Below, piece by piece: positions 11,254-54,991 of a stretch of DNA of 54,991 bases. The notes below the pieces were generated by a model. It was given only the letters and a program-made list of their open reading frames with translations, did no database searches and was not told the DNA's origin. The position numbers and the translations under genes are program-made. This DNA is from Candidatus Omnitrophota bacterium (lineage in GTDB: Bacteria > Omnitrophota > Gorgyraeia > Gygaellales > JAHJCI01), in the NCBI GenBank assembly GCA_043812035.1, contig JBDRMR010000034.1, positions 1 to 54,991 on the forward strand. The letters are read 5' to 3'. The number at the start of each line of letters is the position of its first letter. Position 1 is the stretch's first letter.

Positions 11254-11270
11254 CCTGCCAGCAGGTTTTT

Positions 11271-11603: not shown

Positions 11604-11712
11604 ACCCCGCGCCTTCTTTACAATTCTATTTTTTCAATAAGGTGTGGGATAAAGTGTATAAGAAAGTGTTAAATCAGATGGACAGCTTTGAATAAAGTAG
11701 AAGGTGCGGGGT
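11604..11712. repeat. MITE-like element with 14-bp terminal inverted repeats
   Basis: ACCCCGCGCCTTCT (11604-11617) and AGAAGGTGCGGGGT (11699-11712), one mismatch, around an AT-rich core. Fills the whole secE-nusG spacer. Confidence 0.6.
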
Positions 11713-12238: not shown

Positions 12239-12244
12239 CCGAAG

Positions 12245-12736: not shown

Positions 12737-12772
12737 GAAACAAATAAGGCAGCGCCGGCGGGATTAATTAAG

Positions 12773-13453: not shown

Positions 13454-13480
13454 CGCAAGCCCGGCAACCGGATTCAGGTT

Positions 13481-14002: not shown

Positions 14003-14027
14003 GGATTAAGTGATAAGGATTAAGTAA
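14000..14027. repeat. Short heptamer-periodic tract
   Basis: TAAGGAT-TAAGTGA-TAAGGAT-TAAGTAA, starting at the rplJ stop codon. Confidence 0.5.
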
Positions 14028-14058
14028 AAAACAAGAGAGGGTAAACAGGGAGGGAAAA

Positions 14059-14448
14059 ATGGTTGCAAATAAAGTGGAAGAGCTGATTAAATCCATCGAG
14101 GGTATGACCGTTCTGGAGCTTTCAGATTTGGTTAAAGCCCTGGAGGAGAAATTCGGCGTTCAGGCGGCGATGCCGGCAATGGCGGCAATGCCTCAGGCGG
14201 GAGGCGCTCCCGGACAGGCTGCGGCCGGCGAAGAAAAGACCAGCTTCAACGTGGTCCTGACCGCCGTGGGAGGAACCAAGATTGCCGTAATAAAGGAAGT
14301 GCGGGCTATGACTAACCTGGGATTAAAAGAGGCAAAAGACCTGGTAGATTCCGCTCCCAAACCGCTGAAAGAGGGAGTGACCAAAGAAGAAGCGGAACAG
14401 ATGAAAAAGAAACTGGAGGCGGCAGGCGCGACGGTTGAGCTTAAATAA
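14059..14448 (+). CDS. rplL: 50S ribosomal protein L7/L12
   Basis: [29 protein letters not shown] and [11 protein letters not shown]. Confidence 0.97.
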
Positions 14449-14471
14449 GCCTGTTAACCCTTTCCCGGACA

Positions 14472-17400
14472 ATGACAGAACGTAAAAGTTTCGGAAAACT
14501 TAAAGAGATATACGAGATACCCGCTCTGCTGGAGCATCAGTTAAACTCCTACAGGGATTTTCTTCAAACAGATATCCCGCCTCACGAACGAAGGCCGATA
14601 GGCTTACAGGAGATACTGCTGGGGTTCTTTCCAATCGAAAGCCATGACCGCCGCCTTCGCATTGAGTTTATCAGTTACTCCCTCGGGAAGCCAAAATACG
14701 ATTTAGAGGAATGTAAGCGCAGGGCAATGACTTACGCCTCTCCCCTGAGAATAAAATTCAGGTTTATTACCGCCCGCGAGAGTATCGAGCAGGACGCGTA
14801 TTTCGGCGAAATCCCTCTTATGACGCCCATCGGTTCATTCGTTATAAACGGCGACGAGCGCGTCATCGTAAACCAGCTTCAGCGTTCCCCGGGCGTCTCC
14901 TTTGAAGAGGAGCTGCACCCCAGCGGTAAAAAAATATATTACGGCCGGATTATTCCTTATCGCGGAGCCTGGCTCGAATTCAAATACGACCTGTCCGAGA
15001 TTATCATTGCGGTTGTGGACAGGCGCAGAAACTTCCCGGCTACCCAAATCCTGCGAATCCTGGGCTTTTCTGCCGACGAAGAAATCATTAAACTTTTCTC
15101 AAAAGAATATCCGCAGGTAATCAATACCCTGAAGAAAGACTATACCAAGAATAAGGAAGAAGCGCTGTTGGACTTCTACCGCAAAGTGCGCCCCGGCGAG
15201 CCGGTAACTTTAGAGGCAGCCGAAAATTTATTTTACCGGCTATTCTTCGACCCCCGCCGCTATGACCTGGAAAGAGTGGGCAGGTTCATCCTAAACAGAA
15301 AACTCGGAATGGAAGTGTCTCTGGACAAGCGTATCCTCGATTCGGAGACGGTAGGCAGGGTAATAGAATACCTTATCCGCCTGAAAGACGGCTTCGGGAA
15401 GATAGACGACATCGACCATTTAGGTAACCGCCGGGTAAAAACTATCTGCGAATTGATTTGCAATCAAGTCAGGATAGGCCTGGCGCGCCTGGACCGCTCG
15501 ATTAGGGAAAGACTCTCCATTCTGGGAGGGTCCGAAGAGCTGAATATCCACCATCTTATCAATTTTAAGCTTTTTTCCAATCAAATCCACGATTTTTTTG
15601 CGCGCGGGCAATTATCGCAGTTTATGGACCAGGTAAACCCGCTGGCAGAACTGACCCACAAGCGCAGGTTAAGCGCTTTGGGGCCGGGCGGGCTTTCCCG
15701 GGAACGCGCCGGTTTCGAAGTCCGGGATATCCATTATTCCCATTACGGCCGCTTATGCCCAATCGAGACGCCCGAAGGGCCTAATATCGGATTAATCGCT
15801 TCGCTGGCGACTTACGCCAAGGTCAATGAATTAGGGCTGCTGGAAACCCCCTATAGAAAGGTCGAGGAAGGCAGGGTTACCCGTAAAATCGAATATTTAA
15901 CCGCCGACATCGAAGAAGAGAAAGTAATCGCTCAGGCGAATGCCCCGATGGACCCCGACGGAAGATTCATCGAGGGGGACGTTTTGTGCCGCTTTAAAGG
16001 AAACTTCCCCAAGGTTAAGGCCGAGAAGGTCGAATATATGGACGTTTCTCCCAAACAATTGGTTTCCATATCTACCTGCCTGATTCCTTTCCTGGAACAC
16101 GATGACGCCAACCGGGCCTTAATGGGCTCGAATATGCAAAGGCAGGCTGTGCCCCTGATGTTCCCCGAGGCGCCGCTGGTGGGCACGATGATTGAAGATA
16201 AGGTGGCCAGGGATTCGGGAGCAGTGGTAATTGCCGAAGAAGCGGGCAAGGTTACGGCCGTAGACGCCTCTTCCATCACCGTCGGAAAAATAACCTACAA
16301 ATTGAAAAAGTTTATCCGGACCAACGCGGATACCTGCATAAACGAACGCCCTATAGTCAAACCGGGAGATTATGTAGAGAAAGGCCGGGTTATTGCCGAC
16401 GGGACGGCAACGGATAAAACAGAGCTTGCTCTGGGCAGGAATCTGCTGGTGGCGTTTATGCCCTGGCGCGGATATAACTTCGAAGACGCCATTCTTGTAA
16501 GCGAGAAGGTGGTCAAGGAGGATGCCTTTACCTCTATACATGTCAGGAAGTTTGAAGTCGAAGCTACCGAGACCAGGCTGGGCAACGAAGAGATAACCCG
16601 CGATATACCGAACGTAGGCGAGGAGGCTCTGGGCAACCTCGACGAGAACGGCATTATCCGCCTCGGCGCCCAGGTCAGCCCCGGGGATATCCTGGTGGGT
16701 AAGGTAACGCCTAAAACCGAATCCGAGCTTTCTCCCGAAGAGAGATTGTTGCGGGCAATCTTCGGGGAAAAGGCCGAGGACGTCCGCGATACCTCGTTGG
16801 TTACTCCTCCGGGAATAGGGGGAGTAGTGGTGAGCGTGCACGTATTTGCGCGCCGGGAAAGAGGCAGGAAATCAAAGGAAGAGAAAAAGAAAGAACTGGC
16901 CAAAATCAGAGAATTAAAGGCATATTATAAGGAAGAGATAGGCTATATCCAGAAGGAGAGAGTTGCGCGCCTGGCGGAAGTCCTGAAGGTAAGCAAAGAC
17001 AGAATAGACAAGCTTGATTTCTCCGACAACGAAGAAGCCAAGCGCATCGACGAGTCCTATAATGAGCAGGTTAAGGCCCTGCTGCTTCAGCAGCAGAGGG
17101 AGATTGAGGGTCTGCGCCGGGGGGATGAATTGCCCAGCGGCGTTTTAAAGCGCGTAGTAGTTTACGTCGCCGCCAAACACAGATTGCAGGAAGGAGACAA
17201 GCTCGCCGGCCGGCACGGCAACAAAGGGGTAGTGGCGCGAATCTTGCCCGAAGAAGATTTGCCTTATCTTCCCGACGGGCAGCCGGTAGACATAGTTTTA
17301 AACCCCTTGGGCGTGCCTTCCCGTATGAACATCGGCCAGATTCTTGAGACCCATTTGGGCTGGGCGGCTCAGGTTTTAGGCATTAAGCTGAGTTCTCCCG

Positions 17401-46071: not shown

Positions 46072-47371
46072 CCTCGCCGTAATCGGGGCAGGATGGGCCG
46101 GCTTCAATGCGGCGCTTAAGGCAAAGAAACACGGCCTCAATGTAGTTTTGATTGAAAAAGAGAAAATCGGCGGAACCTGTCTCAACCGCGGATGCATTCC
46201 CGCCAAAGCATTAATCCAATCGGCAAAAGTCTATTCCCTCTGCCAAAAATCGGCTAAATTCGGCATAGAGATAGCCGGTTCAAAAATAAACTTCCCGGAA
46301 GTGCAAAAGAGAAAAGAAGCAATCGTCGGCCAGCTCGGCAAAGGCATAGAGTTTATGCTCAGAGATATCCCCCTTCTTAAGGGCGAGGCTCGATTCATCT
46401 CTAACGAAGAGCTAAGCGTCGGCGGGGATAAAATTAAAGCAAAACATATTATTATCGCCTCCGGCTCAAAACCTCTTCAATTGCCGGATGTAAAATTCGA
46501 CGGTAAAAAGATTGTCTCAAGCAACGATGTTCTTAATTTAAGCAGGATTCCGGAATCGCTTTTGATTATCGGCGGCGGGGTAATCGGGTGCGAGTTTGCC
46601 TCTCTATTTTCCGCTCTGGGAGCCGACGTTACTATTGTCGAGCTGATGCAGCATATTCTACCTCAGGAAGACAACGAAATAGCGAAAAGGCTAGAGGGCA
46701 TTTTCAGAAAAAGAGGTATTAAAATATACGTCAATACAAACGTCAAATCAATGGATTTAGAAGAATTTTCTTTAGCGCTCCAATGCGTAGGCAGAGCTCC
46801 CGAATTGGAAAGCCTGGATTTAAAAAAGACCGGTATTCTGACACAGAAATTTAAGCTTTCCAGCGAGAAAATCGTCACAGACGAACATATGAATACCAAC
46901 ATCCCCAATATTTTCGCTGCGGGAGACTGCGCCGGAGGCAAACAGCTGGCGCACGCAGCCGCTCACCAGGGCAGAATCGCGGTAGAAAACATCATCCATC
47001 CGGGCCGGGCCAGGCAGATAGAGTCCCGGCTGATTCCTAACTGCATATTTACCGCGCCCGAGGTGGCCAGCGTCGGAATTACGGAGCAAGAAGCCGGAGA
47101 AAACGGCATTGAGCCGAAGATAAATAAATTCGATTTCCTCGGCTCAGGTATGGCCCGTATTATGGATGAGGCGGAAGGATTCATTAAAGTGGTTTCCGAT
47201 AAGAATACCGGCGGCATCCTCGGAGGGTCAATTATCGGCCCAAAAGCAACCGAACTAATCGCAATAATGACGGTTGCCGTCCAATCCCAGCTTAAATTAT
47301 CGCAATTGCGCGAGATAGTCTTTGCGCACCCCACCCTGTCGGAGTCCATCCACGAAGCAACAGAAGATTAA
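46055..47371 (+). CDS. lpdA: Dihydrolipoamide dehydrogenase (E3)
   Basis: GGTCLNRGCIP redox disulfide, GGGVIGCE, LAH and HPTLSE. Confidence 0.92.
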   Translation: MNYAYDLAVIGAGWAGFNAALKAKKHGLNVVLIEKEKIGGTCLNRGCIPAKALIQSAKVYSLCQKSAKFGIEIAGSKINFPEVQKRKEAIVGQLGKGIEFMLRDIPLLKGEARFISNEELSVGGDKIKAKHIIIASGSKPLQLPDVKFDGKKIVSSNDVLNLSRIPESLLIIGGGVIGCEFASLFSALGADVTIVELMQHILPQEDNEIAKRLEGIFRKRGIKIYVNTNVKSMDLEEFSLALQCVGRAPELESLDLKKTGILTQKFKLSSEKIVTDEHMNTNIPNIFAAGDCAGGKQLAHAAAHQGRIAVENIIHPGRARQIESRLIPNCIFTAPEVASVGITEQEAGENGIEPKINKFDFLGSGMARIMDEAEGFIKVVSDKNTGGILGGSIIGPKATELIAIMTVAVQSQLKLSQLREIVFAHPTLSESIHEATED

Positions 47372-47372
47372 A

Positions 47373-48026
47373 ATGAAATCCGGGATTTTTGACCTCGGAC
47401 TAACTGATTTCCGGCAAGCCTGGGAATTTCAGAAAAGCATATTCCTCAGGGTAAAACAAAACGAATTATCCTCGGCGCTCATTCTCTGCCGGCATCTCCC
47501 GGTGATTACGATAGGCAGGAGCGGCAAAAAAGAAAATATTTTATCCGGAGACAGCCAATTAGAAAAATTAAACATAAAAATCTATGAAATAGAGCGCGGG
47601 GGAGACGCAACATACCACGGCCCGGGCCAGCTGTGCATTTATCCCATAATTAACCTCGCTGATTTTAAGAAGGACATAAACTGGTATCTAAGGAGTCTCG
47701 AGGTATTACTCCTTGACGTGCTTTCTGATTTCGGAATTAAGGCGCAAACCCGGCCCGGGCTCACCGGCATCTGGACAGGCCGGAAGAAGCTCGCCTCAAT
47801 CGGAATATCCGTAAGAAACTGGATAACCTTTCACGGCGCCGCTTTGAACGTAAAAAACGATGATTTGGCCAATTTTTCCTTGATTAGACCCTGCGGCATG
47901 GATATAATAATGACATCGATGGAAGATGTTCTAAACGAAGAGGTAAGATTCGATAAAATTAAAAGAATTTTAACAAGGAGATGGTATGAGGCAGGTAGTT
48001 TTGCCGGAGCTGGGCGAGGGGATTGA
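47373..48026 (+). CDS. lipB: Octanoyltransferase LipB (start revised to 47373)
   Basis: RGGDATYHGPGQL, KLASIG, HGAALN and the catalytic IRPCG. Confidence 0.92.
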   Translation: MKSGIFDLGLTDFRQAWEFQKSIFLRVKQNELSSALILCRHLPVITIGRSGKKENILSGDSQLEKLNIKIYEIERGGDATYHGPGQLCIYPIINLADFKKDINWYLRSLEVLLLDVLSDFGIKAQTRPGLTGIWTGRKKLASIGISVRNWITFHGAALNVKNDDLANFSLIRPCGMDIIMTSMEDVLNEEVRFDKIKRILTRRWYEAGSFAGAGRGD

Positions 48027-48225
48027 AGGCGCTAACGTAACCTACTGGTATTTCAAAGAAGGCGCCGGCGTAAAGGAAGGAGAGGACCTGGTCGAATTAG
48101 CTACGGATAAGGCCACGTTTAACCTTCCCAGCCCCTGTTCGGGCACGTTAAAACAAATATTATTAAACGAAGGAGAGGCTGTAAAAGTCGGCGAAGTTTT
48201 GGCCATCATCGAAGAGTCCTCCTAA
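47986..48225 (+). CDS. Stand-alone lipoyl-domain protein
   Basis: LPELGEG, ELATDKA (lipoyl-Lys), SPCSG and GEAVKVG, i.e. an E2-type lipoyl domain with nothing else. AGGAG RBS. Confidence 0.9.
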   Translation: MRQVVLPELGEGIEGANVTYWYFKEGAGVKEGEDLVELATDKATFNLPSPCSGTLKQILLNEGEAVKVGEVLAIIEESS

Positions 48226-48228
48226 AAG

Positions 48229-48822
48229 ATGTGGTATTGGATATTCAGAACGGGAGCCGTCATAACATTGAAATTGTTTTTCCGACTTAATGTTCGTGGC
48301 TTGAAAAACTTACCCTCAAAAAACAATTTCATAGTAGTTTCCAACCACGCTAGTTTCCTGGACCCCTTCATTATCGCCGCCGCAATTCCCAAGAAAATCC
48401 ACTGCATATCCTCCAGATTTCTCTATGGAATTCCCTGGCTCAAATGGTCGTTAGAAAGATTGGAAGCGTTGCCGACCGGCGGCTCATCTCAAAAGGCAAT
48501 TGATTATTTATCCAAAAACGAAGTCGTCGGCTTATTCCCGGAAGGAGGCTGCTCCCGTGACGGAAAACTGAGAGAATTCAGAAACGGCGCGGCTCTGTTA
48601 GCCCTTAAGACCGGAAGGCCGATAGTCCCTTGCGCGATTTTGGGCTCTTTCGGCGTCCTCCCCTTGAGAGCCAGGTTCCCAAAGTTTCTTCACATAAAGG
48701 TAAAAATCGGCAGGCCGATATTTTTATTAAAATCATTTGACGACGACGTCGACGAACTGCGCTTGCAGGAGGGAATTTTTAAAATCAGGAATACCATTGA
48801 GGAGATGTTGAATGCAGGATAG
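48229..48822 (+). CDS. PlsC-family (lysophospholipid) acyltransferase
   Basis: NHASFLD (HX4D), FPEGGCSR and PIVP. Confidence 0.9.
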   Translation: MWYWIFRTGAVITLKLFFRLNVRGLKNLPSKNNFIVVSNHASFLDPFIIAAAIPKKIHCISSRFLYGIPWLKWSLERLEALPTGGSSQKAIDYLSKNEVVGLFPEGGCSRDGKLREFRNGAALLALKTGRPIVPCAILGSFGVLPLRARFPKFLHIKVKIGRPIFLLKSFDDDVDELRLQEGIFKIRNTIEEMLNAG

Positions 48823-50389
48823 CGGACTCGTTGAAATAAGCGTAAACAGGGTTATACCGGCTCAGAAGTGGAGAATAATCCGGCTCATAACCAGGATATG
48901 GGAATTCCCGGCTTATATGCCCAACGTTAAAGAGGCGGCGGTTATACATAAAAGTCATAATACGGTTAAAACCAAATGGAGAATTCAGGTAGATAAAGTT
49001 CCGGTAAGCTGGATTCAGGAAGAAAGGCTTGCCTTAAATCAAAACGCGATTTATTTTAAAGCCGTCGAAGGCGATTTAGGGGAATTTAACGGCGTATGGA
49101 AATTCAGCAACTGTCCTGAAGGCACCTGCGTAACCGTGACAGCTTCTTTAAGAGTGGATATTCCGGCAATCCGAACCTTCGCGGAAAATTACGTAAAGAA
49201 CCTGTTAATCAGGAATTTTGAAGCTATATTGGAATCTCTGGAGCGCCGGTTAATTTCGGCAAGGTATGAAAGTTACAAGCGAGGCGTATCCGAAAAGATA
49301 GCCGGCTTCGGAATCGTAGGGCACTTATACAACTTCTACCACTTAGAAAAATGCCTTAAAATGTTAAATCCGGATTTCAAGATGCCTTCCCGGGAATTTA
49401 TCAGCCAGATTTTTCACATTACCCCGTCTTTTAAGCTCTACGATATTTTAGATTTTAAGTCTAAAACCGGCGCAACGGCCAACGGATGTTTTATTGTGGC
49501 CACATTTATACCCGATATGATTGATAAAGACGTGTGGACCGTTTTCTCCAAGGTTGTCAGGGCCTGCAAGATTGCCGAAAAACACGGCGTGGGTATCGTG
49601 ACGCTGGGGGGCTTTGCTTCTATGGTGGCCGAGAGAATAGGACACCAGATTGTTGATGAGATAGATGTGCCGGTTACTACCGGCAATACCTTTACCGCGG
49701 CAATGGCGATAGACGGGATTCTCAAGGCTGCGCAAGACCTGAATCTGGAACTCGCCTCTGCCAAAGCGGCTATTGTAGGCGGTACCGGAGATATCGGCAG
49801 CGCCTGCGCGAGAGTATTGGCCGGGACGGTGCGGCAATTGACGATTACCGGACGAACAAAAGAACACCTGCGCAGTTTGAGAGCCGAGTTGAGAAAAAAG
49901 CGCAAAGCCAGGATTATCGCCACTACCGACAACGAATCGGCGGTGAAGGATGCGGATATCGTCATTTCTGCGGCAAGCGCAACTTCCGCAATCCTTAAAA
50001 TCGAGTGGTTTAAGCCCGGCTCGATAATCTGCGACGTAGGATACCCCAAGAATATTTCATACACCCCGACTGCGCGGCAGGATATTCTAATCTTCTCGGG
50101 CGGATTAGCCAAAACCCCTATGCCTATTTCGTTTCCCATCGATATAGGCTTACCGTCACCCGGCGTAACCTACGGATGCTTTGCGGAGGGTATCATTTTA
50201 TCCCTGGAGAAACGGTTCGAGAATTACAGTTTCGGCAGAGGAAACATTACCCCCCAGAAAATAGAAGAAATAAGAAATTTAGGCAAAAAACACGGCTTTG
50301 AAGTCTCCGGCTTCTATTGGGGAGACAAATTTATAGATGAGACAGCTATAGAAAAGATAAAAGAGGCAATCAATACTAAAATATCATAA
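48812..50389 (+). CDS. Fusion of an SRPBCC/START-like domain with a long-chain acyl-ACP reductase (aldehyde-forming)-like domain
   Basis: First about 150 aa: WEFPAYMPNVKE, EGDLGEFNGVW (cyclase/START pattern). From 49307: FGIVGHL, LGGF, TTGNTFTA, VGGTGDIGSA, DVGYPKN, YGCFAE, NYSFGRGNIT and KHGF, colinear with cyanobacterial AAR motifs. Confidence 0.82.
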   Translation: MQDSGLVEISVNRVIPAQKWRIIRLITRIWEFPAYMPNVKEAAVIHKSHNTVKTKWRIQVDKVPVSWIQEERLALNQNAIYFKAVEGDLGEFNGVWKFSNCPEGTCVTVTASLRVDIPAIRTFAENYVKNLLIRNFEAILESLERRLISARYESYKRGVSEKIAGFGIVGHLYNFYHLEKCLKMLNPDFKMPSREFISQIFHITPSFKLYDILDFKSKTGATANGCFIVATFIPDMIDKDVWTVFSKVVRACKIAEKHGVGIVTLGGFASMVAERIGHQIVDEIDVPVTTGNTFTAAMAIDGILKAAQDLNLELASAKAAIVGGTGDIGSACARVLAGTVRQLTITGRTKEHLRSLRAELRKKRKARIIATTDNESAVKDADIVISAASATSAILKIEWFKPGSIICDVGYPKNISYTPTARQDILIFSGGLAKTPMPISFPIDIGLPSPGVTYGCFAEGIILSLEKRFENYSFGRGNITPQKIEEIRNLGKKHGFEVSGFYWGDKFIDETAIEKIKEAINTKIS

Positions 50390-50416
50390 TTACAATAATA
50401 ACAATTTGAAGATAAA

Positions 50417-51718
50417 ATGGAAAAATTAGAAGCGGATATTGTAATTGTGGGTTCGGGCACAAGCGGGACTACTGTGGCTAAAGAATTAGCAACCAGGGGC
50501 AGAAAAGTTTTAATTGTGGAAAAAGGGCATTTTTTTTCTCAAGATAGGATTGGCTCCGAACTTCATGCTTACAAATTTTATGATAAACATGGGATATGGA
50601 GCAAGAGTAAAGAAGGAGTATTCTACTATCGGACAATAATGGTTGGGGGGACGTCAGTTGTTAGCTGCGCAAATGGTGTAAGAGCTCTTGAAAATGAATT
50701 TAAAAATTTAGGAATAGATTTAACAGAAGAATTTTTCGAAGTCGAGAGGGAACTCGGTATTAAACCCATTCCAAACAGATTTATCGGTAACGGCTCTAGA
50801 AAAATTATGGAGGCAGCAGGTAAACTTGGTTTTAATATGAAGCCAATGCCAAAATTTATAAATTTTGAAAAATGTATTTCTTGTGGAAATTGCGTTTTAG
50901 GATGTTGCTCAGGTGCAAAATGGACTGCTTTACAATATCTAAAAGAAGCTCAAGATAACGACGCCTCATTAGTTACAGGCATAAACATTACTAAAATATT
51001 AATTTCTAATGGCAAAGCTATTGGCATAGAGGGGTATAATCAGGCAGGAAGAAAAATAGAGATAATTGCTAACAATATAGTTTTAGCAGCAGGCGGGATC
51101 GGAACGCCTATAATTCTACAAAATTCTGGAATTGAAGCCGGACAAAAATTATTTTTAGACCTTTTTAATGTTACGATTGGACTAACTAAGGGTGTGGGGT
51201 TAATAAAAGAACCGGTGATGGCGGCAGTAAGTCATAGCGAAGGCTTTATTTTATCCCCCTTTATAGATAGTCCTCTTGTTTTAGCCTCGGTTATACCCGC
51301 ATCTCAAAGGCGTAATTTAAAAATTACTACACAGAGGAAGCATATGCTCGGTATTATGGTAAAAATAAAGGATGATTGTCTTGGTAGAGTTCACAAAGAT
51401 GGGTTAATAGAAAAAACAATAACTTCAAATGACATATTCGGATTAAATAAAGGAGCGGATATTGCGAAAGAAATCTTAATTAATGCTGGAGTCGATCCTA
51501 AAACAGTAATGACGACAAAAATTCGAGGCGCTCATCCTGGTGGTACGGCGGCTATGGGCGAGGTAGTTAATGAAAATTTTGAAACAAAGATAAAGGGACT
51601 TTTTGTTTGTGATGCCAGCATCCTGCCAACCTCACCGGGTTTACCACCAATTGTAACAATAATTGCGCTTTCGAAGAAATTCGTCAAGAATATCGTGGGC
51701 GTAAAAGAAAAGATATGA
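50417..51718 (+). CDS. GMC-family FAD oxidoreductase with a Cys-rich motif
   Basis: IVGSGTSG, VGGTSV, CISCGNCVLGC, LAAGGIGTP, HPGGTAAMG, VCDASILP and PPIVTI. Confidence 0.88.
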   Translation: MEKLEADIVIVGSGTSGTTVAKELATRGRKVLIVEKGHFFSQDRIGSELHAYKFYDKHGIWSKSKEGVFYYRTIMVGGTSVVSCANGVRALENEFKNLGIDLTEEFFEVERELGIKPIPNRFIGNGSRKIMEAAGKLGFNMKPMPKFINFEKCISCGNCVLGCCSGAKWTALQYLKEAQDNDASLVTGINITKILISNGKAIGIEGYNQAGRKIEIIANNIVLAAGGIGTPIILQNSGIEAGQKLFLDLFNVTIGLTKGVGLIKEPVMAAVSHSEGFILSPFIDSPLVLASVIPASQRRNLKITTQRKHMLGIMVKIKDDCLGRVHKDGLIEKTITSNDIFGLNKGADIAKEILINAGVDPKTVMTTKIRGAHPGGTAAMGEVVNENFETKIKGLFVCDASILPTSPGLPPIVTIIALSKKFVKNIVGVKEKI

Positions 51719-53898
51719 ATCTAAATATATATGTATGGGGTGGTTTAGTAACTGCTTTTACTAATCTAATGATTTCTTCGTTTGTTTATTTTAAAAATAG
51801 AAGGAGCCCCATTAATAAAATCTTTCCTTTATATTCTCTCAGTATAGGGTTATGGAGTTTTTGTTGGTCTAAGACGATTACAGCAACCGATGCGGCTATA
51901 GCGTTACATTGGTCTAAGGCTTTAAGTATAGGCTCTATACTTATTCCTGCATTTTTCCTACATTTTATTTTCACAATATTGAATATCGTAAAAAATAAAA
52001 AAAATATACTTATAGGAAGTTATATACTTGCTTTTGTATTTTTATTTTTTTGCTATTTCACTAATTTATTCATTAGGGGTGTGGCGCCTATATTCTCATT
52101 TAATTATCATATTCAACCCGGTCCAATTTATATATTTCATTTTTTATCTTTTATAGCAATGACTATTTACGGTGCTTTTGAATTATTTAAAGCATCTAAA
52201 ATTTCTGTTGGTTTAAAACGCAATCAAATAAGGTATTTATTTTGGGCTCTTATGATTGGTTATGTAGGAGGAGTAACAGCCTTTTTTCCAATTTATAAAA
52301 TACCAATGCCCCCTCTGGCAGTCTACACAATCCCCGTATGCATTATAGTTATTGCCTACGCCATAGTTAAATATAGCCTGATGGAAATCACAGTCACGAT
52401 AACGCGCACAGGGATATTTGTGGCGCTATATACCCTAGTTTTGGGGCTGCCGTTTCTTTTGGGAGCCTGGAATGAAGATTGGTTAATTGAATTTTTAGGA
52501 CCGAATTGGTGGTTAGGCCCGTTAGCTTTAATGGCCATCTTAGCTACCGCTGGTCCGTTTATTTATATCTTTCTTGAAAAAAGGGCTGAAGCGATACTTT
52601 TACGTGAGCAGCGTAAGTATCAGGAGACTCTAAAACAAGCGGCGAGAGAGATAGCCCGAATTCGTAATTTAAAAAGATTATTAAATCTAATTGTGCACAT
52701 CGTTACCAAAGCTGTCCGCATTTCCCATTCGGCAATATATTTATACGACGATATATCAAGGGAATTTATTTTAAGAGCAAGCCGCAATTTAGAAAAGAGA
52801 CAAATAGCATCATTGAGTAATAAAAATCCTTTGATTCTTTGGATCGAGAGACAAAAAGAACCTTTAGTTTACGAAGAGATAAACCGCAAGACCCAAAATG
52901 GCTACAGCTATATTTTTAAGGAAATAGAACAACAGATGCTTTCCCTGAATGCTAGTTTAATAGTGCCGGGTTTTCTTAAGGATAAGCTGTTGGGCTTTCT
53001 TATTTTAGGAAACAAGCGCTCCGGAGGATTTTATACTTCGGAGGATTTAAATACCTTCTCAGTATTAGCAAACCAGACTGCCCTGGCTGTGGAGAATGCC
53101 TTGCTTTACGAAAACATAGAGGATCAGGTCAGGCAGAGAACAAGAGAGCTGGTAGAGATGCAAAAACAACTCATTCAGGCAGAAAAAATGGCCACCGTCG
53201 GCACTCTGGCAGGCGGAGTAGCCCACGAAATAAATAATCCGCTCACCGCGATACTCACAAATGTTCAAATGCTTTTAACAATCAACGGTTCTCTTGATGT
53301 CGATTCGAAGGAATCTCTTGATCTGATAGAGGAAGCAACCAAGCGCTGCCGGACGATAGTCCAGAAATTAATGACTTACGCAAAAAAACCCCTGGAAACC
53401 GCGGAAATAAACGAGGTAAATTTATCTAAAGTCATTAAAAATATGATTTCTTTCCTCGAATACCAATTAGGACAAGATAATATCAAGGTAATCGTGGCTG
53501 CAGAAAAAGGCGACTATTTAGTAATGGGTAATCAAAATGAATTGGAGCAGGTCATAACGAATATGCTTTTAAACGCAAGAGACGCGGTGAGGCAGATAAA
53601 AAAAGGCGGCACGGTAAATATATCGCTTTCGAAAAGCGGCGATTGGATAAAAATTGAAATTAAAGACGAAGGCATAGGCATTCCACCGGAGACTATTCCA
53701 AAGATATTCGACCCGTTTTTCACCACGAAAGAGGTCGGGAAAGGAACCGGCCTGGGCCTTTCCATCTGCCAGTCTATCGTCGAGAAACACAATGGCATAA
53801 TTTCAGTCCGGTCCGAGCCCGATAAGGGCTCTGTGTTTACAGTCCAGCTTCCAAGAATAAAAGAGAAGAGTACGCTTAAAAGCAAGGTAAAGGTATAA
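51715..53898 (+). CDS. Membrane sensor histidine kinase (7TM-type N-terminus, GAF, HisKA, HATPase)
   Basis: Multi-TM N-terminus, GAF (LGNKRSGGFYTSED), AHEINNPL H-box, QVITNMLLNA, DEGIG, FDPFFTTK and GTGLGL. Confidence 0.93.
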   Translation: MNLNIYVWGGLVTAFTNLMISSFVYFKNRRSPINKIFPLYSLSIGLWSFCWSKTITATDAAIALHWSKALSIGSILIPAFFLHFIFTILNIVKNKKNILIGSYILAFVFLFFCYFTNLFIRGVAPIFSFNYHIQPGPIYIFHFLSFIAMTIYGAFELFKASKISVGLKRNQIRYLFWALMIGYVGGVTAFFPIYKIPMPPLAVYTIPVCIIVIAYAIVKYSLMEITVTITRTGIFVALYTLVLGLPFLLGAWNEDWLIEFLGPNWWLGPLALMAILATAGPFIYIFLEKRAEAILLREQRKYQETLKQAAREIARIRNLKRLLNLIVHIVTKAVRISHSAIYLYDDISREFILRASRNLEKRQIASLSNKNPLILWIERQKEPLVYEEINRKTQNGYSYIFKEIEQQMLSLNASLIVPGFLKDKLLGFLILGNKRSGGFYTSEDLNTFSVLANQTALAVENALLYENIEDQVRQRTRELVEMQKQLIQAEKMATVGTLAGGVAHEINNPLTAILTNVQMLLTINGSLDVDSKESLDLIEEATKRCRTIVQKLMTYAKKPLETAEINEVNLSKVIKNMISFLEYQLGQDNIKVIVAAEKGDYLVMGNQNELEQVITNMLLNARDAVRQIKKGGTVNISLSKSGDWIKIEIKDEGIGIPPETIPKIFDPFFTTKEVGKGTGLGLSICQSIVEKHNGIISVRSEPDKGSVFTVQLPRIKEKSTLKSKVKV

Positions 53899-53899
53899 A

Positions 53900-54436
53900 G
53901 TGAAATATCCAACTATTTTCCATCTTATTTCATCTGTATGTAGCTCAAGAAATATATCCTTATGTTTAATCGGAGGTTTTGCAGTTAATTATTATAAGGT
54001 AACGCGCCAAACTGCAGACGTAGATTTTTTGATTACGAAGAATGACTACGATAAAATACTAAGTTTATTGGAAGAAGAAGGTTTTAAACAAGACTACTCC
54101 CAAGAGGTATTTGCTAGACTTACCACCGAGAAATCATATTTGATGGACCTTGACTTTATGTTTGTAGATAAAGAAACGCTGGATAAAATTATCAGAGAAG
54201 GAAACCAGATTAGTATTGCTGGAAGGAAATTTATAGTTCCTTGCCTACTTCATTTAATCGCCCTTAAGTTACACGCAATAAAGTACAATCCTAAGGTTCG
54301 TGAATATAAAGATCTTGCGGATATTATCGAATTGATTAAAGTCAATAAAATAGACACAAGAAGCGATGAGTTTAAGAACCTGTGCCTAAAATATGGCACA
54401 GAAGAACTTTATCGTAAAATATTAGAAAAAATTTGA
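53900..54436 (+). CDS. Pol-beta-superfamily nucleotidyltransferase (toxin-like)
   Basis: IGGFAV..Y..TRQTADVDF, LIALKLHA and KDLADI. Confidence 0.8.
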   Translation: MKYPTIFHLISSVCSSRNISLCLIGGFAVNYYKVTRQTADVDFLITKNDYDKILSLLEEEGFKQDYSQEVFARLTTEKSYLMDLDFMFVDKETLDKIIREGNQISIAGRKFIVPCLLHLIALKLHAIKYNPKVREYKDLADIIELIKVNKIDTRSDEFKNLCLKYGTEELYRKILEKI

Positions 54437-54437
54437 G

Positions 54438-54620
54438 GTGTTTAAAATGGAAGAACTTAAATTACCCATTATTAAGGAATCGCTCCCTGTTGCCAAATGC
54501 TTATCTATGGAAGATTACGTAAAATTTGTCACCTTAAATTTAAAATATACTATAAATAAAAAAACTGTTAGAAAACAGAAGAAGTTGACCGCAGTGAATG
54601 TGCCGTTTTCGCTAAGGTGA
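54438..54620 (+). CDS. Small hypothetical protein, possible partner of the nucleotidyltransferase
   Basis: 60-aa ORF coupled to the upstream gene. The ATG at 54447, after GAGGTG, is an alternative start. Confidence 0.55.
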   Translation: MFKMEELKLPIIKESLPVAKCLSMEDYVKFVTLNLKYTINKKTVRKQKKLTAVNVPFSLR

Positions 54621-54691
54621 TTATTTTGCGTATTAATTTCTAAAGGAAGCGATCCCGGAGGGAGCAGTATAACTATACCAGGAGAATAAAA

Positions 54692-54991
54692 ATGGCTAAA
54701 AAAATCTTGGTTATCGATGACGAAGAGCTGATCATAAAATCGCTCAGAAAATTATTAGAAAAGAACGGATTTGCGGTCTTTGTCGCCAAAAACGGTCAGG
54801 ACGCGATAGTGATGGCCGAAGAGGAAGACTTTGACCTGATAATCGCTGATATAAGAATGCCCGGCATAAACGGAGTGGATACGACACAGTTCATTTTCGA
54901 GAACCTGCAAAAAAGAAACTCTGAGAAAATCCCCGTTATATTCATTACCGGATACGCAGACAAGGCAATTGAAAAAAAGGCGGCAGCGCTT
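54692..54991 (+). CDS. Response regulator receiver domain (partial, runs off the window)
   Basis: AGGAG RBS, then MAKKILVIDDEE...DLIIADIRMPGING...PVIFITGYA. Confidence 0.93.
   Translation, partial: MAKKILVIDDEELIIKSLRKLLEKNGFAVFVAKNGQDAIVMAEEEDFDLIIADIRMPGINGVDTTQFIFENLQKRNSEKIPVIFITGYADKAIEKKAAAL

What the first reader, a model, noticed from the sequence alone, without database searches (positions are those of the whole stretch)
48229..51718. Candidate new lipid pathway: PlsC + START-fused cyanobacterial-type acyl-ACP reductase + GMC oxidoreductase, with no ADO nearby
Seen: residues from about 166 onward of ORF 48812-50389 follow, in order, the motifs I recall for cyanobacterial aldehyde-forming acyl-ACP reductase (FGLIGHL, LGGF, TTGNTHTA, GATGDIGSA, DGGYPKN, FACFAE, NFSWGRNQIT, RHGF). 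Here they read FGIVGHL, LGGF, TTGNTFTA, GGTGDIGSA, DVGYPKN, YGCFAE, NYSFGRGNIT and KHGF, so the catalytic Cys is kept. Known: in cyanobacteria AAR is a single-domain enzyme paired with aldehyde-deformylating oxygenase (ADO) to make alkanes. Seen: here it carries an N-terminal START/SRPBCC domain, overlaps an HX4D acyltransferase and is followed by a GMC flavoenzyme, with no ferritin-like ADO in the window. Inference: the START pocket may take over ADO's role as aldehyde acceptor, and the three genes may make fatty aldehyde/alcohol-derived products (wax ester, ether or vinyl-ether lipid, or a diffusible signal) in a non-cyanobacterium.
Basis: partly seen in the sequence, partly recalled or inferred. 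Interest (0 to 1): 0.85.

Follow-up and report, generated by a model that had tools for sequence, protein, structure and literature searches.

The report
Lipid-aldehyde enzyme fused to lipid pocket
A groundwater Omnitrophota bacterium carries an uncharacterised enzyme that probably turns fatty acyl chains into fatty aldehydes and hands them to a built-in lipid-binding pocket, next to a membrane-lipid acyltransferase and a membrane sensor kinase, which points to an unstudied way of modifying membrane lipids.

Summary
ORF 48812-50389 is an SRPBCC/START domain fused to an AAR-family thioester reductase. All eight quoted motifs are present, and Cys456 and the NAD(P)H loop are invariant in 44 relatives. 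It overlaps an HX4D acyltransferase by 11 nt and is followed by a GMC flavoprotein. No ADO was found in this genome or in any of 151 genomes of the phylum.

- The fusion is not a one-off. It is a monophyletic, uncharacterised family in Candidatus Omnitrophota, and more than 150 cluster representatives are closer to it than cyanobacterial AAR is.
- The PlsC-fusion pair is conserved in this clade (45 of 54 loci).
- GMC is an optional accessory (8 of 80 loci). It always sits in front of the kinase, and here it is compositionally foreign.
- A complex model (0.79 against 0.01 for the best control) docks the SRPBCC pocket loops on the AAR region that forms the acyl-tunnel exit and touches ADO in cyanobacteria. 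This supports the aldehyde-acceptor idea.

The end product is not established. An ether-type glycerolipid is the leading guess and a lipid signal is the main rival. Verdict: a new variant of a known kind, of moderate interest.

The parts
48229..48822 (+). PlsC/AGPAT-type acyltransferase, 197 aa, with HX4D at aa 40-45 and FPEGG at aa 103. Its stop overlaps the start of the fusion gene by 11 nt.
   Evidence: PF01553, E 5.8e-24. The best NCBIfam hit is the acyltransferase part of acyl-[ACP]--phospholipid O-acyltransferase, E 5.6e-27. Motifs confirmed. It lies directly upstream of the fusion in 45 of 54 loci of the near clade and in 0 of 19 loci of the distant clade. A paralogue at G000:C12 lies between phosphoglucomutase and ribosomal protein S1.
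48812..50389 (+). SRPBCC-AAR fusion protein, 525 aa.
   Evidence: AlphaFold2 gives mean pLDDT 89.2 and pTM 0.86.
48812..49276 (+). SRPBCC/START-like lipid-binding domain (aa 1-155), including the long C-terminal helix aa 118-156.
   Evidence: PF03364, 44.1 bits against a cut-off of 23.4. PDB 2d4r: E 2.4e-12 by sequence and TM 0.92, rmsd 1.6 by fold. W56, W67, F82, G87, D88, G94, W96 and P118 are invariant in 44 sequences. The predicted interface uses aa 62-66, 87-90, 115-120, 123-124 and 127-128.
49307..50389 (+). AAR-family NAD(P)H-dependent thioester reductase domain (aa 166-525).
   Evidence: TIGR04058, E 3.1e-50, 171.4 bits, below its cut-off of 449.7. PigE model, E 1.8e-48. 6jzq, E 3.1e-36. 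6jzy_A, TM 0.86, rmsd 2.7, 28% identity.
49778..49798 (+). Dinucleotide-binding loop GGTGDIG (aa 323-329).
   Evidence: Translation. G323, G326, I328 and G329 are invariant. It corresponds to the loop 162-GATGDIG-168 of SeAAR (PMC7089970, passages read).
50177..50179 (+). Codon of the catalytic Cys456.
   Evidence: Translation. Invariant in 44 sequences. Aligned with C294 of SeAAR, the residue that carries the acyl thioester (PMC7089970).
50417..51718 (+). Short GMC-family flavoprotein, 433 aa. An optional accessory gene of the cluster.
   Evidence: PF00732, E 5.5e-23, and PF05199, E 1.2e-10. It lies after the fusion in 8 of 80 loci. Orthologues in G115 and G089 lie without an AAR but directly before a 7TM kinase. 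GC3 is 0.283, against 0.476-0.643 for 37 other ORFs of the window.
50873..50905 (+). CxxCxxCxxxC motif (CISCGNCVLGC, aa 153-163) inside the GMC protein. A putative iron-sulfur site.
   Evidence: Translation. C153, C156, C159 and C163 are invariant in 9 of 9 orthologues, as is H373. The Fer4 matches are weak and below cut-off, so cluster binding is inferred.
51715..53898 (+). 7TM-GAF-HisKA-HATPase sensor histidine kinase, 727 aa. The most conserved neighbour of the reductase.
   Evidence: HisKA_7TM, GAF, HisKA and HATPase_c domains. It matches the PrsK model end to end at 111.6 bits, below the cut-off of 300. A 7TM kinase lies downstream on the same strand within 3.5 kb in 49 of 58 loci that have enough sequence, and within 300 nt in 26 of them. 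The same holds next to stand-alone and split AAR genes.
54692..54991 (+). Start of a receiver-domain (response regulator) gene, cut off by the end of the contig.
   Evidence: ORF listed. Homologues follow the kinase in 38 of 80 loci. The equivalent 125-aa gene in L077 is PF00072, E 6.7e-26. The window copy itself was not scanned against Pfam.

Best explanation
ORF 48812-50389 encodes a two-domain enzyme of a family found, in these searches, almost only in Candidatus Omnitrophota.

Mechanism, with the basis of each step:
1. The C-terminal domain is an AAR-family thioester reductase. It most likely takes an acyl chain from acyl-ACP (or acyl-CoA) onto Cys456 and reduces the thioester with NAD(P)H to a fatty aldehyde. 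This is inferred from family chemistry; what is shown here is conservation of the fold, the Cys and the nucleotide loop.
2. The aldehyde leaves through the acyl tunnel into the hydrophobic pocket of the N-terminal SRPBCC domain. In the models this domain docks with its pocket-mouth loops on the tunnel-exit segment, the place where ADO docks in cyanobacteria. This step is model-supported and inferred.
3. The translationally coupled PlsC-type acyltransferase is the conserved enzymatic partner in this clade. The aldehyde, or the alcohol made from it, is therefore probably used to build or remodel a glycerolipid. The leading guess is an alkyl or alkenyl ether-type lipid, by the logic of the myxobacterial ElbD reductase + acyltransferase system.
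4. The gene slot between the reductase and the kinase holds different redox enzymes in different relatives: a GMC protein with a 4-Cys motif here, an HpnA/OleD-like SDR or a B12 radical-SAM enzyme elsewhere, and often nothing. GMC is therefore an optional tailoring step (alcohol/aldehyde interconversion), not a core member.
5. The 7TM-GAF histidine kinase and its receiver are the most conserved neighbours. They presumably control the module or sense its lipid product.
For: Identity and catalytic features. E 3.1e-50 to TIGR04058; 6jzy_A TM 0.86; Cys456, G323, G326, G329, T289, G291, D408, P412 and N414 invariant in 44 sequences that go down to 28% identity.

Substrate supply in the same genome:
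- PlsX, PlsY and FabF.
- An ACP gene next to FabF.

Family logic. Passages of PMC8341465 state that AAR and GluTR channel their aldehyde to the next enzyme through an exit tunnel. PigE and KecF carry the acceptor as a fused domain.

Docking:
- ipSAE 0.79 against a best control of 0.01. That mark was reached by 58 of 80 solved complexes and 2 of 110 mismatched pairs.
- The three runs agree in at least 96% of contacts, and the partner's pLDDT is at least 87.
- The interface on the AAR side is aa 182-209, 229 and 231.
- By the alignment this includes L185 = SeAAR M21 and F189 = Y26. M21, Y23 and Y26 form the tunnel end and bond to ADO helix 8 (PMC7089970 passages).
- The SRPBCC side of the interface includes the invariant G87, D88 and P118.

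The SRPBCC partnership recurs:
- One fusion clade of 90 tips, support 0.994.
- A second clade of 22 tips, support 0.989, which holds other fused forms, PilZ-fused forms and four of the five adjacent split SRPBCC + AAR genes. The fifth (L058) lies next to that clade in tip order.

Neighbours:
- PlsC coupling in 45 of 54 near-clade loci.
- An ACP directly upstream of PlsC in 3 loci, and an AMP-binding-ACP-PlsC protein after the fusion in L090.
- Slot genes of lipid type: HpnA model at 326.7 bits, OleD model E 6.7e-33, a radical-SAM protein matching HpnJ and the 'lipid biosynthesis B12-binding/radical SAM' model, and a diglucosyl-diacylglycerol-synthase-like gene nearby.
- Kinase in 49 of 58 loci.
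Against: - No activity, lipid or expression data exist. No RNA run holds the locus.
- The protein fails the TIGR04058 equivalog cut-off (171 bits against 449.7). It scores as well against the PigE thioester-reductase model, so the substrate need not be a plain fatty acyl-ACP.
- In sister lineages the stand-alone homologue sits in KAS-KR-ACP-KAS clusters. That points to a dedicated, possibly polyketide-like chain.
- Docking near the AAR N-terminus is partly expected from chain connectivity. I had no coordinates, so tunnel-pocket continuity was not checked.
- The mapping to SeAAR numbering rests on one low-identity alignment with gaps.
- PlsC is absent upstream in 0 of 19 loci of the distant fusion clade, where FadL or RND genes sit instead. 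The acyltransferase link is therefore clade-specific.
- Full-length ElbD-like proteins occur in 17 of 151 genomes, and only 8 of those have an AAR match, against 66 of 151 overall. There is no co-occurrence signal.
- In this genome all genes of the window run on one strand and are tightly packed, which weakens adjacency as evidence.
Confidence: 0.5

Rival explanations
1. Signal synthase and sensor pair. The reductase makes a lipid aldehyde or alcohol that acts as a signal. The adjacent 7TM-GAF kinase is its receptor. The SRPBCC domain is the carrier that hands the signal to the membrane or the kinase.
For: - The kinase is a more widely conserved neighbour than PlsC. It is present in 49 of 58 loci across both fusion clades, and in 10 of 13 stand-alone or split AAR loci by the script.
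- Relatives carry signalling domains on the same polypeptide: PilZ-SRPBCC-AAR, HTH_17-PilZ-SRPBCC-AAR and AAR-GAF.
- Small HTH_17 genes, receiver genes, PilZ-methyltransferases and a second 7TM-GAF protein surround the cluster.
- The parallel with CqsA/CqsS-type synthase-sensor pairs is recalled, not tested here.
Against: - The 7TM kinases are a large paralogous family: 122 of 151 genomes have one, and some have up to 9 matches.
- Paralogues sit behind other enzymes with no AAR present: GMC with ALDH or FadL in G089 and G115, and HGD-D/BcrAD genes on C3 of this genome. That fits a general regulator of lipid or hydrophobic-compound genes better than a specific receptor.
- The tight coupling to an acyltransferase suggests a bulk lipid rather than a signal.
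Confidence: 0.2
2. Reductive release in a specialised polyketide or fatty-acid-like pathway, as with PigE, KecF or the carmabin terminal domain. The AAR domain releases a dedicated ACP-bound chain as an aldehyde. The SRPBCC domain acts as a cyclase/dehydratase or chaperone of that chain. The product is a secondary metabolite rather than a membrane lipid.
For: - The score to the PigE model is nearly equal to the score to AAR.
- Foldseek matches the carmabin TAD (E 2.4e-20) and places the SRPBCC domain near the TcmN, ZhuI and WhiE aromatase/cyclases, TM 0.71-0.78.
- In L052, L053, L054 and L061 the stand-alone homologue lies in KAS-AAR-SDR(-ACP)-KAS-...-amine-oxidase clusters. An ACP ORF was called in L052 and L053, and the nitroreductase was annotated in L052 only.
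- Those clusters resemble the koreenceine type II cluster described in PMC6498172 (passages).
- KAS genes lie downstream in 6 of 80 fusion loci and an ACP lies upstream in 3.
Against: - In the window's clade the constant partners are PlsC and the kinase, not KAS or ACP.
- This genome has one FabF and one ACP, in the housekeeping fab cluster.
- The best structural match of the SRPBCC domain is the non-cyclase TTHA0849, TM 0.92.
- No aminotransferase or other typical tailoring gene is in the window.
Confidence: 0.15
3. PlsC, START-AAR and GMC together form an obligate unit, with GMC as the committed enzyme acting on the aldehyde.
For: - The exact order PlsC-fusion-GMC-kinase recurs in relatives such as L080, L095 and L103.
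- The GMC copies are 58-74% identical to the window's, similar to the 63-71% of the fusion in the same loci. The arrangement is therefore old.
- Orthologous GMC genes sit next to an aldehyde dehydrogenase (G089) or a FadL channel (G115), which fits a lipid alcohol/aldehyde substrate.
Against: - GMC follows the fusion in only 8 of 80 loci and in 0 of 29 loci of the phylum sample.
- The window's closest relative, L075 (84% identical fusion), has PlsC-fusion-kinase with no GMC.
- GMC loci are scattered over the fusion tree.
- GMC is followed by a kinase wherever the downstream sequence could be read, with a small reverse-strand ORF between them in L124. In L112 the next gene is cut off by the contig end and was not identified.
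- In the window and in L095, GMC shares the kinase's low GC3 rather than that of PlsC and the fusion.
Confidence: 0.1
4. No pathway at all. The genes are neighbours only because this small genome packs genes on one strand. The fusion has a housekeeping role unrelated to PlsC, GMC or the kinase.
For: All large ORFs of the window are on the + strand with short gaps. The TCA and lipoate genes icd, mdh, lpd, lipB and a lipoyl-domain ORF run straight into plsC.
Against: The PlsC overlap and the kinase adjacency persist across dozens of species-level genomes whose wider surroundings differ.
Confidence: 0.05

Closest known systems
Cyanobacterial acyl-ACP reductase (AAR; Synechococcus elongatus, PDB 6JZQ/6JZU/6JZY)
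   Same: - Three-domain fold: TM 0.86, rmsd 2.7 over 355 columns.
- Catalytic Cys (C294 = Cys456) and the GxTGDIG NADPH loop.
- The TTGNT, GYPKN and CFAE motifs.
- Presumably the same acyl-Cys then hydride chemistry, with an exit tunnel for the aldehyde.
   Different: - Only 28-29% identity, and 171 bits against the equivalog cut-off of 449.7.
- No ADO in this genome or in the phylum sample.
- The ADO-binding residues R73 and R79 align with D240 and S246 (residue roles from PMC7089970 passages).
- It carries an N-terminal SRPBCC domain, and lies next to PlsC and a kinase instead of ADO.
PigE / KecF / TamH-type thioester reductase domains fused to aminotransferases (prodigiosin, koreenceine, tambjamine pathways)
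   Same: AAR-like Cys reductase domain: NF053554, E 1.8e-48, and 4ppm, E 7.8e-31. The aldehyde acceptor is fused to the reductase, so the product is channelled (PMC8341465 and PMC6498172, passages read).
   Different: The fused acceptor here is a non-catalytic-looking SRPBCC lipid pocket at the N-terminus, not a PLP aminotransferase. There is no pyrrole or alkaloid cluster around it.
Myxococcus xanthus ElbD and the elb operon (alkyl ether lipid synthesis)
   Same: [quoted passage not shown]

In relatives of the window an HpnA-like SDR follows the fusion in 12 of 80 loci, and an AMP-binding-ACP-PlsC protein follows it in L090. This genome has such a protein, split over contigs C70 and C35.
   Different: - The reductase belongs to another family (AAR-like, not the FAR1/NAD_binding_4 type).
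- The functions are on separate polypeptides.
- There is no co-occurrence signal with ElbD-like genes.
- No ether lipid has been measured in any Omnitrophota that I could find.
SRPBCC/START lipid-binding proteins (TTHA0849, COQ10/RatA group; TcmN-type aromatase/cyclases)
   Same: Helix-grip fold, TM 0.92 to 2d4r and 0.71-0.78 to the TcmN, ZhuI and WhiE cyclases. PF03364 match.
   Different: Here it is fused to, or encoded next to, a reductase. The models predict that it presents its pocket-mouth loops to that enzyme. No cyclase residues were tested.

Membership tests
Cyanobacterial long-chain acyl-ACP reductase (TIGR04058 equivalog) | Score at or above the curated equivalog cut-off (449.7 bits) | tested here: not met
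   171.4 bits, E 3.1e-50, aa 166-497
Cyanobacterial long-chain acyl-ACP reductase (TIGR04058 equivalog) | Catalytic cysteine equivalent to C294 and the GxTGDIG dinucleotide loop | tested here: met
   Cys456 aligns with C294. Cys456, G323, G326, I328 and G329 are invariant in 44 sequences.
Cyanobacterial long-chain acyl-ACP reductase (TIGR04058 equivalog) | Three-domain AAR fold | tested here: met
   AlphaFold2 model, pLDDT 89.2. Foldseek 6jzy_A: E 4.2e-28, TM 0.86 normalised to the target.
Cyanobacterial long-chain acyl-ACP reductase (TIGR04058 equivalog) | Works with aldehyde-deformylating oxygenase (ADO gene present; ADO-binding R73/R79/K80 patch) | tested here: not met
   PF11266 gave 0 matches in this genome and 0 of 151 in the phylum sample. 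R73 and R79 align with D240 and S246; only K80 = K247 is kept.
Cyanobacterial long-chain acyl-ACP reductase (TIGR04058 equivalog) | NADPH-dependent reduction of long-chain acyl-ACP to fatty aldehyde | not testable with these tools
   Needs an enzyme assay.
AAR-like (COG5322-type) thioester reductase superfamily, including PigE-N, KecF-C and the carmabin TAD | Homology over the whole reductase domain with the Cys nucleophile | tested here: met
   AAR, PigE and 4ppm hits. Carmabin TAD by fold, E 2.4e-20. 2669 cluster representatives at E <= 0.001 and 363 at E <= 1e-30.
SRPBCC / START-like superfamily (PF03364) | Pfam score above the gathering cut-off, and helix-grip fold | tested here: met
   44.1 bits against 23.4. 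2d4r TM 0.92, rmsd 1.6.
SRPBCC / START-like superfamily (PF03364) | Binds a hydrophobic ligand in the central pocket | not testable with these tools
   No model coordinates were available to measure the pocket. Ligand binding needs an experiment.
PlsC / AGPAT acyltransferases (PF01553; TIGR00530) | HX4D and (F)PEGG motifs and a Pfam match | tested here: met
   HASFLD at aa 40 and FPEGG at aa 103. PF01553, 84.8 bits against 23.
PlsC / AGPAT acyltransferases (PF01553; TIGR00530) | Score above the TIGR00530 1-acylglycerol-3-phosphate acyltransferase cut-off (102.95 bits) | tested here: not met
   73 bits. The C12 paralogue also falls short, at 84.7 bits. Neither can be named the housekeeping PlsC from these scores.
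GMC oxidoreductases | N- and C-terminal GMC domains, FAD-binding GxGxxG, and the conserved active-site His | tested here: met
   PF00732, 82.4 bits, and PF05199, 42.6 bits, both above cut-off. G12, G14, G17 and H373 are invariant in 9 of 9 orthologues. Assigning H373 as the catalytic His is recalled from family knowledge.
ElbD-type bacterial ether-lipid system | FAR1-type (NAD_binding_4) reductase fused with ACS, ACP and AGPAT domains | tested here: not met
   The reductase here is AAR-like and stands on its own polypeptide with SRPBCC. An AMP-binding-ACP-PlsC protein exists elsewhere in the genome.
ElbD-type bacterial ether-lipid system | Produces alkyl or alkenyl glycerol ether lipids | not testable with these tools
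   Needs lipid analysis.
HisKA_7TM (PrsK-like) sensor histidine kinases | 7TM N-terminal region + GAF + HisKA + HATPase_c | tested here: met
   All four domains are above Pfam cut-offs. The PrsK equivalog scores 111.6 bits against a cut-off of 300, so it is not a PrsK orthologue.

The most novel reading that the evidence does not exclude
The SRPBCC-AAR fusion, together with its coupled PlsC-type acyltransferase, is the missing reductive arm of an oxygen-independent route to alkyl or alkenyl glycerol ether lipids in Omnitrophota. This would be a non-orthologous replacement of the FAR domain that ElbD-like proteins of anaerobes lack. The aldehyde would be passed protein-to-protein through the SRPBCC pocket, and the output would be tuned by a membrane-embedded 7TM-GAF kinase. 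That would make these abundant groundwater and sediment nanobacteria a source of non-isoprenoid ether lipids.
Probability: 0.15. Interest if true: 0.85.

Novelty: new variant of a known kind. Interest (0 to 1): 0.55.

Why it matters
AAR is known as half of the cyanobacterial alkane pathway and as a biofuel enzyme whose aldehyde must be handed directly to ADO. Here the same catalytic core has a different, built-in acceptor (a START-like lipid pocket) and sits in a membrane-lipid and signalling context, in a phylum with almost no cultured members and no measured lipids.

If the channelling model is right, it shows a general rule for this enzyme family: every branch brings its own aldehyde acceptor. 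It also offers a self-contained aldehyde-producing module for engineering.

If the product is an ether-type lipid, it would bear on the open question of which anaerobic bacteria make non-isoprenoid ether lipids and how.

The finding is directly testable by expression in E. coli. All of this rests on sequence, models and synteny; nothing was measured.

Tried and rejected
- Literature. No paper in the held library combines 'acyl-ACP reductase' with 'SRPBCC', with 'START domain' or with 'Omnitrophota'. 'COG5322' gave 3 papers, none on this fusion. 'Omnitroph' + 'fatty aldehyde' gave 2 papers. I read passages of one and it was irrelevant; the other I saw only in the search listing. Supplements were closed, so tables of ElbD or Mss hits in Omnitrophota MAGs (PMC11868695) could not be checked against these genes.
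- Expression. No RNA holder was listed for the locus, and read laying was not used.
- Sigma-70 promoter and terminator scan of 47300-54991. 24 promoter-like sites against 18.0 +/- 4.8 in shuffles, and 6 terminator-like sites against 7.8 +/- 2.6. This is uninformative.
- The supposed 203-nt gap before plsC is in fact filled by a 79-aa lipoyl-domain-like ORF, so no sigma-54 promoter search was pursued.
- Co-occurrence of the reductase with ElbD-like proteins showed no enrichment: 8 of 17 against 66 of 151.
- Wax-ester synthase (PF03007) was not found in this genome, but the control rang nowhere, so the result says nothing. An AGPS-type FAD-oxidase_C domain was not found. Only a weak Aldedh match was found.
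- I could not place cyanobacterial AAR or PigE in the tree, because no tool returned their sequences as usable ids and I did not type sequence from memory. The tree is midpoint-rooted and contains only Omnitrophota loci and unnamed cluster representatives.
- ESM Atlas hits below 0.9 to stand-alone clusters from other phyla are leads only.
- The idea that the GMC protein could replace ADO as an alkane-forming enzyme (by analogy with algal fatty acid photodecarboxylase, which I recall) was considered and dropped. GMC is optional, and nothing supports that chemistry.

Full report
**1. What is in the sequence**

All are on the + strand. The first two overlap by 11 nt and the third follows after 27 nt.

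Every quoted motif is present at the stated place. Domain matches are:
- PF01553 acyltransferase (E 5.8e-24), with HASFLD at aa 40 and FPEGG at aa 103.
- SRPBCC PF03364 at aa 24-133 (E 3e-11).
- An AAR-like domain at aa 166-497 (TIGR04058, E 3.1e-50).
- GMC N- and C-terminal domains.

The PDB sequence search aligns aa 166-497 with residues 2-335 of Synechococcus AAR (E 3.1e-36) and puts Cys456 opposite C294.

An AlphaFold2 model built on a 44-sequence alignment is confident: mean pLDDT 89.2, pTM 0.86. Foldseek matches its C-terminal part to AAR (6jzy_A, TM 0.86 normalised to the target, rmsd 2.7, 28% identity). It matches the N-terminal part to the START-like protein TTHA0849 (TM 0.92).

ADO (PF11266) was not found in the window's genome, which is 1.34 Mb in 83 contigs and 92.75% complete. 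It was not found in any of 151 genomes sampled from the phylum either, although the control rang in Synechococcus.

**2. Whose gene it is**

The protein search returned 636 relatives among the 8000 candidates scored. The best 120 are all 515-544 aa long and 67-100% identical. Where named, they come from Candidatus Omnitrophota/Omnitrophica and are called 'SRPBCC family protein', or by JGI 'fatty aldehyde-generating acyl-ACP reductase'.

A scan of species-representative genomes gave 80 loci. Most are titled Candidatus Omnitrophota or Omnitrophica. The rest carry automatic 'uncultured Planctomycetales/Planctomycetia', 'uncultured bacterium' or 'PVC group' labels, or in one case a Uhrbacteria label. 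The ESM Atlas cluster has 393 members, most commonly Omnitrophota. DNA nearly identical to the locus is held by groundwater metagenome runs.

In a sample of 151 genomes of the phylum, 66 have an AAR-like match at E <= 1e-10. The matches are full-length fusions, stand-alone genes of about 370 aa, or adjacent split SRPBCC + AAR genes.

The fusion is therefore a conserved but uncharacterised family, not a peculiarity of this genome. I found no paper on it.

**3. How 'cyanobacterial' it is**

The TIGR04058 score is 171.4 bits, far below the equivalog cut-off of 449.7. It is about equal to the score against the PigE thioester-reductase model (165.5 bits).

A full HMMER pass over 1.84 billion cluster representatives with the AAR domain found 2669 relatives at E <= 0.001 and 363 at E <= 1e-30. 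All 150 listed score at least 157 bits, above the roughly 129 bits of the cyanobacterial enzyme.

The protein therefore belongs to a broad AAR-like family of Cys-dependent thioester reductases. Cyanobacterial AAR, the PigE and KecF reductase domains and the carmabin terminal domain are other branches of that family. In all the characterised branches the chemistry is thioester to aldehyde.

The catalytic parts are under selection. Cys456, G323, G326, I328, G329, T289, G291, D408, P412 and N414 are invariant in 44 sequences that go down to 28% identity.

**4. The SRPBCC domain as acceptor**

Passages of PMC7089970 describe the acyl tunnel of AAR. It ends at Y23 and Y26 of the N-terminal domain and is sealed by ADO. 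M21, Y23 and Y26 bond to ADO helix 8. R73A, R79A, K80A and Y247A mutants lose ADO binding. Passages of PMC8341465 note that AAR and GluTR both channel the aldehyde to the next enzyme.

I folded aa 1-155 against aa 160-525 as separate chains, with controls:
- The score was 0.79 against a best control of 0.01.
- That mark was reached by 58 of 80 solved complexes and 2 of 110 mismatched pairs. These counts hold only roughly, because my own alignment was used.
- The three runs agree in at least 96% of contacts, and the partner's pLDDT is at least 87.

The interface on the reductase is aa 182, 185-186, 189-190, 192-193, 195-197, 199-201, 203-205, 207, 209, 229 and 231. By the alignment, L185 is SeAAR M21, F189 is Y26 and F196 is F33. 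This is the tunnel-exit segment.

On the SRPBCC side the contacts are the turns at 62-66 and 87-90 and the start of the long helix (115-128). They include the invariant G87, D88 and P118. In helix-grip proteins these elements surround the pocket mouth; I recall this from the fold's literature and did not measure it.

R73 and R79 of SeAAR align with D240 and S246, so the ADO patch itself is not kept.

The partnership recurs. The main fusion clade has 90 tips (support 0.994). A second clade of 22 tips (support 0.989) holds other fused forms, PilZ-SRPBCC-AAR forms and four of the five split SRPBCC + AAR pairs, and the fifth (L058) lies just beside it in tip order. The tree has 240 AAR domains and 365 columns, was built with FastTree and is midpoint-rooted. 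Sequences covering fewer than 280 model positions were left out, and exact duplicates then reduced 256 sequences to 240.

Caveats:
- A domain fused at the N-terminus must lie near residues 20-40 of the next domain.
- The alignment is gapped in that region.
- I had no coordinates with which to test whether tunnel and pocket join.

**5. Which neighbours are real partners**

The first sample (29 other loci with 1.5-kb flanks) showed GMC in 0 of 29, PlsC in 5 and the kinase in 16. The larger set of 80 loci refined this.

- **PlsC.** It lies directly upstream of the fusion, overlapping it, in 45 of 54 loci of the window's clade (AAR-domain identity of 55% or more, with enough upstream sequence). 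It does so in 0 of 19 loci of the more distant fusion clade, where FadL-type channels, RND pumps and small unknown proteins sit instead.
- **GMC.** It follows the fusion in 8 of 80 loci, all in the near clade and scattered over the tree. The closest relative, L075 (84% identical fusion), has PlsC-fusion-kinase without GMC.
- **The kinase.** A 7TM kinase lies downstream on the same strand within 3.5 kb in 49 of 58 loci that have at least 2.5 kb of downstream sequence. It lies within 300 nt in 26 of them. It also follows stand-alone and split AAR genes, in 10 of 13 loci by the script. Two further loci are shown to have it at a contig end or in a broken frame.

The slot between reductase and kinase holds one of several things:
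- nothing;
- GMC;
- an SDR that nearly reaches the HpnA model (326.7 bits against 367.65) and also matches OleD (12 of 80 loci);
- a B12-binding radical-SAM protein matching HpnJ and the 'lipid biosynthesis B12-binding/radical SAM' model (5 loci).

Other recurring neighbours:
- a second stand-alone AAR paralogue before PlsC (10 loci);
- an ACP before PlsC (3 loci);
- KAS pairs downstream (6 loci);
- an AMP-binding-ACP-PlsC protein (L090);
- small HTH_17 genes;
- a receiver gene after the kinase (38 loci);
- methyltransferases with or without a PilZ domain;
- a diglucosyl-diacylglycerol-synthase-like gene.

**6. The GMC gene**

In the phylum sample only two other genomes have a close orthologue, and neither has an AAR match. 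G115 has FadL-unknown-GMC-kinase. G089 has ABC ATPase-aldehyde dehydrogenase-GMC-kinase-kinase.

GMC is followed by a 7TM kinase in the loci where the downstream gene could be identified, with a small reverse-strand ORF between them in L124. In L112 the next ORF is cut off by the contig end and was not identified.

In the window, GC3 is 0.283 for GMC, 0.378 for the kinase and 0.296 for the following nucleotidyltransferase-like gene. The other 37 ORFs range from 0.476 to 0.643. L095 shows the same break. GMC therefore appears to travel with the kinase, probably by exchange between relatives.

All nine orthologues keep C153, C156, C159, C163 (CxxCxxCxxxC) and H373. This suggests a flavoprotein dehydrogenase that passes electrons to an iron-sulfur cluster rather than to oxygen. 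That is inferred; the Pfam Fer4 matches are below cut-off.

Its neighbours elsewhere (aldehyde dehydrogenase, FadL) fit a hydrophobic alcohol/aldehyde substrate.

**7. Genome background**

The genome has PlsX, PlsY, FabF and an ACP, so acyl-ACP is available. It has one AAR-like gene and one GMC gene.

It has further PF01553 proteins:
- a 202-aa paralogue between phosphoglucomutase and ribosomal protein S1;
- an AMP-binding-ACP-PlsC protein split over the ends of contigs C70 and C35.

Neither small acyltransferase reaches the TIGR00530 cut-off, so I cannot say which is the housekeeping PlsC.

No AGPS-type domain was found, and only a weak aldehyde-dehydrogenase match. The wax-synthase search was uninformative.

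**8. Reading**

The best-supported account is as follows. The gene encodes an aldehyde-forming thioester reductase with a built-in SRPBCC acceptor. In this clade it is coupled to a PlsC-type acyltransferase. It is tailored by optional redox enzymes and wired to a 7TM-GAF two-component system.

The set of functions parallels the myxobacterial elb system: a reductase giving an aldehyde, an AGPAT domain, ACS/ACP, and an NAD-dependent epimerase-family partner (PMC9131029 passages). The reductase, however, is of a different family. That review also notes that ElbD-like proteins outside the myxobacteria mostly lack the reductase domain. PMC11868695 (passages) reports ElbD homologues in 93 of 267 Omnitrophota MAGs from the Black Sea.

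An ether-type glycerolipid is therefore my leading guess for the product. It is only a guess, and I found no co-occurrence between ElbD-like proteins and the reductase (8 of 17 against 66 of 151).

The main rival is a lipid signal sensed by the kinase. It is favoured by the wider conservation of the kinase and by PilZ-, HTH_17- and GAF-fused relatives. It is weakened because paralogous kinases follow unrelated enzymes, including an HGD-D/BcrAD cluster on C3 of this genome. A polyketide-style reductive release is a third possibility, suggested by the KAS-ACP clusters around stand-alone homologues.

**9. Verdict**

The reductase identity, the absence of ADO, the aldehyde-acceptor idea and the PlsC link all hold up at the level that sequence, models and synteny can reach. 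The fixed three-gene pathway does not hold up, and the label 'cyanobacterial-type' is too narrow.

This is a new variant of a known enzyme kind: widespread in public metagenome-assembled genomes but unstudied. Interest is moderate (0.55). It would rise sharply if ether lipids or channelling were shown.

Noticed in passing
window 47986-48225 (+): A 79-aa ORF with a lipoyl/biotinyl-domain-like sequence (it contains the DKA motif; the assignment is by eye and by recall, with no HMM run). It fills the apparent gap between lipB and plsC and ends 3 nt before the plsC start. The block mdh-lpd-lipB-small ORF lies upstream of plsC-fusion in 11-14 of 80 related loci.
   Followed up: partly
G000 contig C3, about 9149-15134 (locus L072 5150-10918): A paralogue of the 7TM-GAF kinase follows three genes: a receiver-fused HGD-D protein, a second HGD-D protein and a BcrAD/BadFG-type ATPase. 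An HTH_17-like match lies just upstream. I recall this enzyme family as the one that includes the anaerobic plasmalogen and ether-lipid enzymes PlsA and Ger. If that is right, a second lipid-type module sits in front of the same kind of kinase.
   Followed up: partly
window 50873-50905; also L073, L074, L080, L088, L092, L095, L103, L112: The short GMC flavoprotein carries an invariant CxxCxxCxxxC motif (9 of 9 orthologues). ESM Atlas look-alike clusters are mostly from anaerobes (Thermodesulfobacteriota, Methanobacteriota, Chloroflexota, Spirochaetota). This may be an iron-sulfur-linked, oxygen-independent branch of the GMC family.
   Followed up: partly
window 50417-54436: There is a sharp compositional break. 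GC3 is 0.283, 0.378 and 0.296 for GMC, the kinase and the nucleotidyltransferase-like gene. It is 0.476-0.643 for the other 37 ORFs of the window. The same break between fusion and GMC-kinase is seen in L095. This suggests cassette exchange.
   Followed up: partly
L052 6190-12794; similar in L053, L054, L061: In sister Omnitrophota lineages a stand-alone AAR homologue sits in a cluster KAS-AAR-SDR(FabG-like)-ACP-KAS-nitroreductase-amine-oxidase-like flavoprotein, followed by a 7TM kinase where the contig continues. The layout resembles the koreenceine-type type II PKS. Each gene was annotated in L052 only.
   Followed up: partly
proteins P0143, P0148, P0194, P0255: Relatives carry extra signalling domains: PilZ-SRPBCC-AAR, HTH_17-PilZ-SRPBCC-AAR, and AAR-GAF (the last from a Myxococcales MAG). 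This hints that the reductase is controlled by c-di-GMP.
   Followed up: no
L057 4404-9284: One genome of the window's order has two tandem AAR-like genes. They are followed by a class I/II aminotransferase-family protein, an unknown protein and an ICMT/PEMT-type methyltransferase, and then the 7TM kinase.
   Followed up: no
G000 contigs C70 (4-2271, -) and C35 (39506-39880, -): An AMP-binding-ACP-acyltransferase gene (ElbD-like without a reductase domain, or Aas-like) is split across two contig ends of the assembly. Its orthologue lies directly after the fusion gene in L090.
   Followed up: partly
window 53900-54436 (+): A nucleotidyltransferase-like gene (NTP_transf_5, E 1.1e-9) lies between the kinase and the receiver gene. 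In most relatives the receiver follows the kinase directly. Only one of the 80 loci has a homologue at that place.
   Followed up: no
L096 6596-8508; L086 6807-7922: In some relatives the HpnA-like SDR after the fusion is followed by a formyltransferase-like gene (an ArnA-like pair). In L086 a diglucosyl-diacylglycerol-synthase-like glycosyltransferase follows the receiver gene.
   Followed up: no
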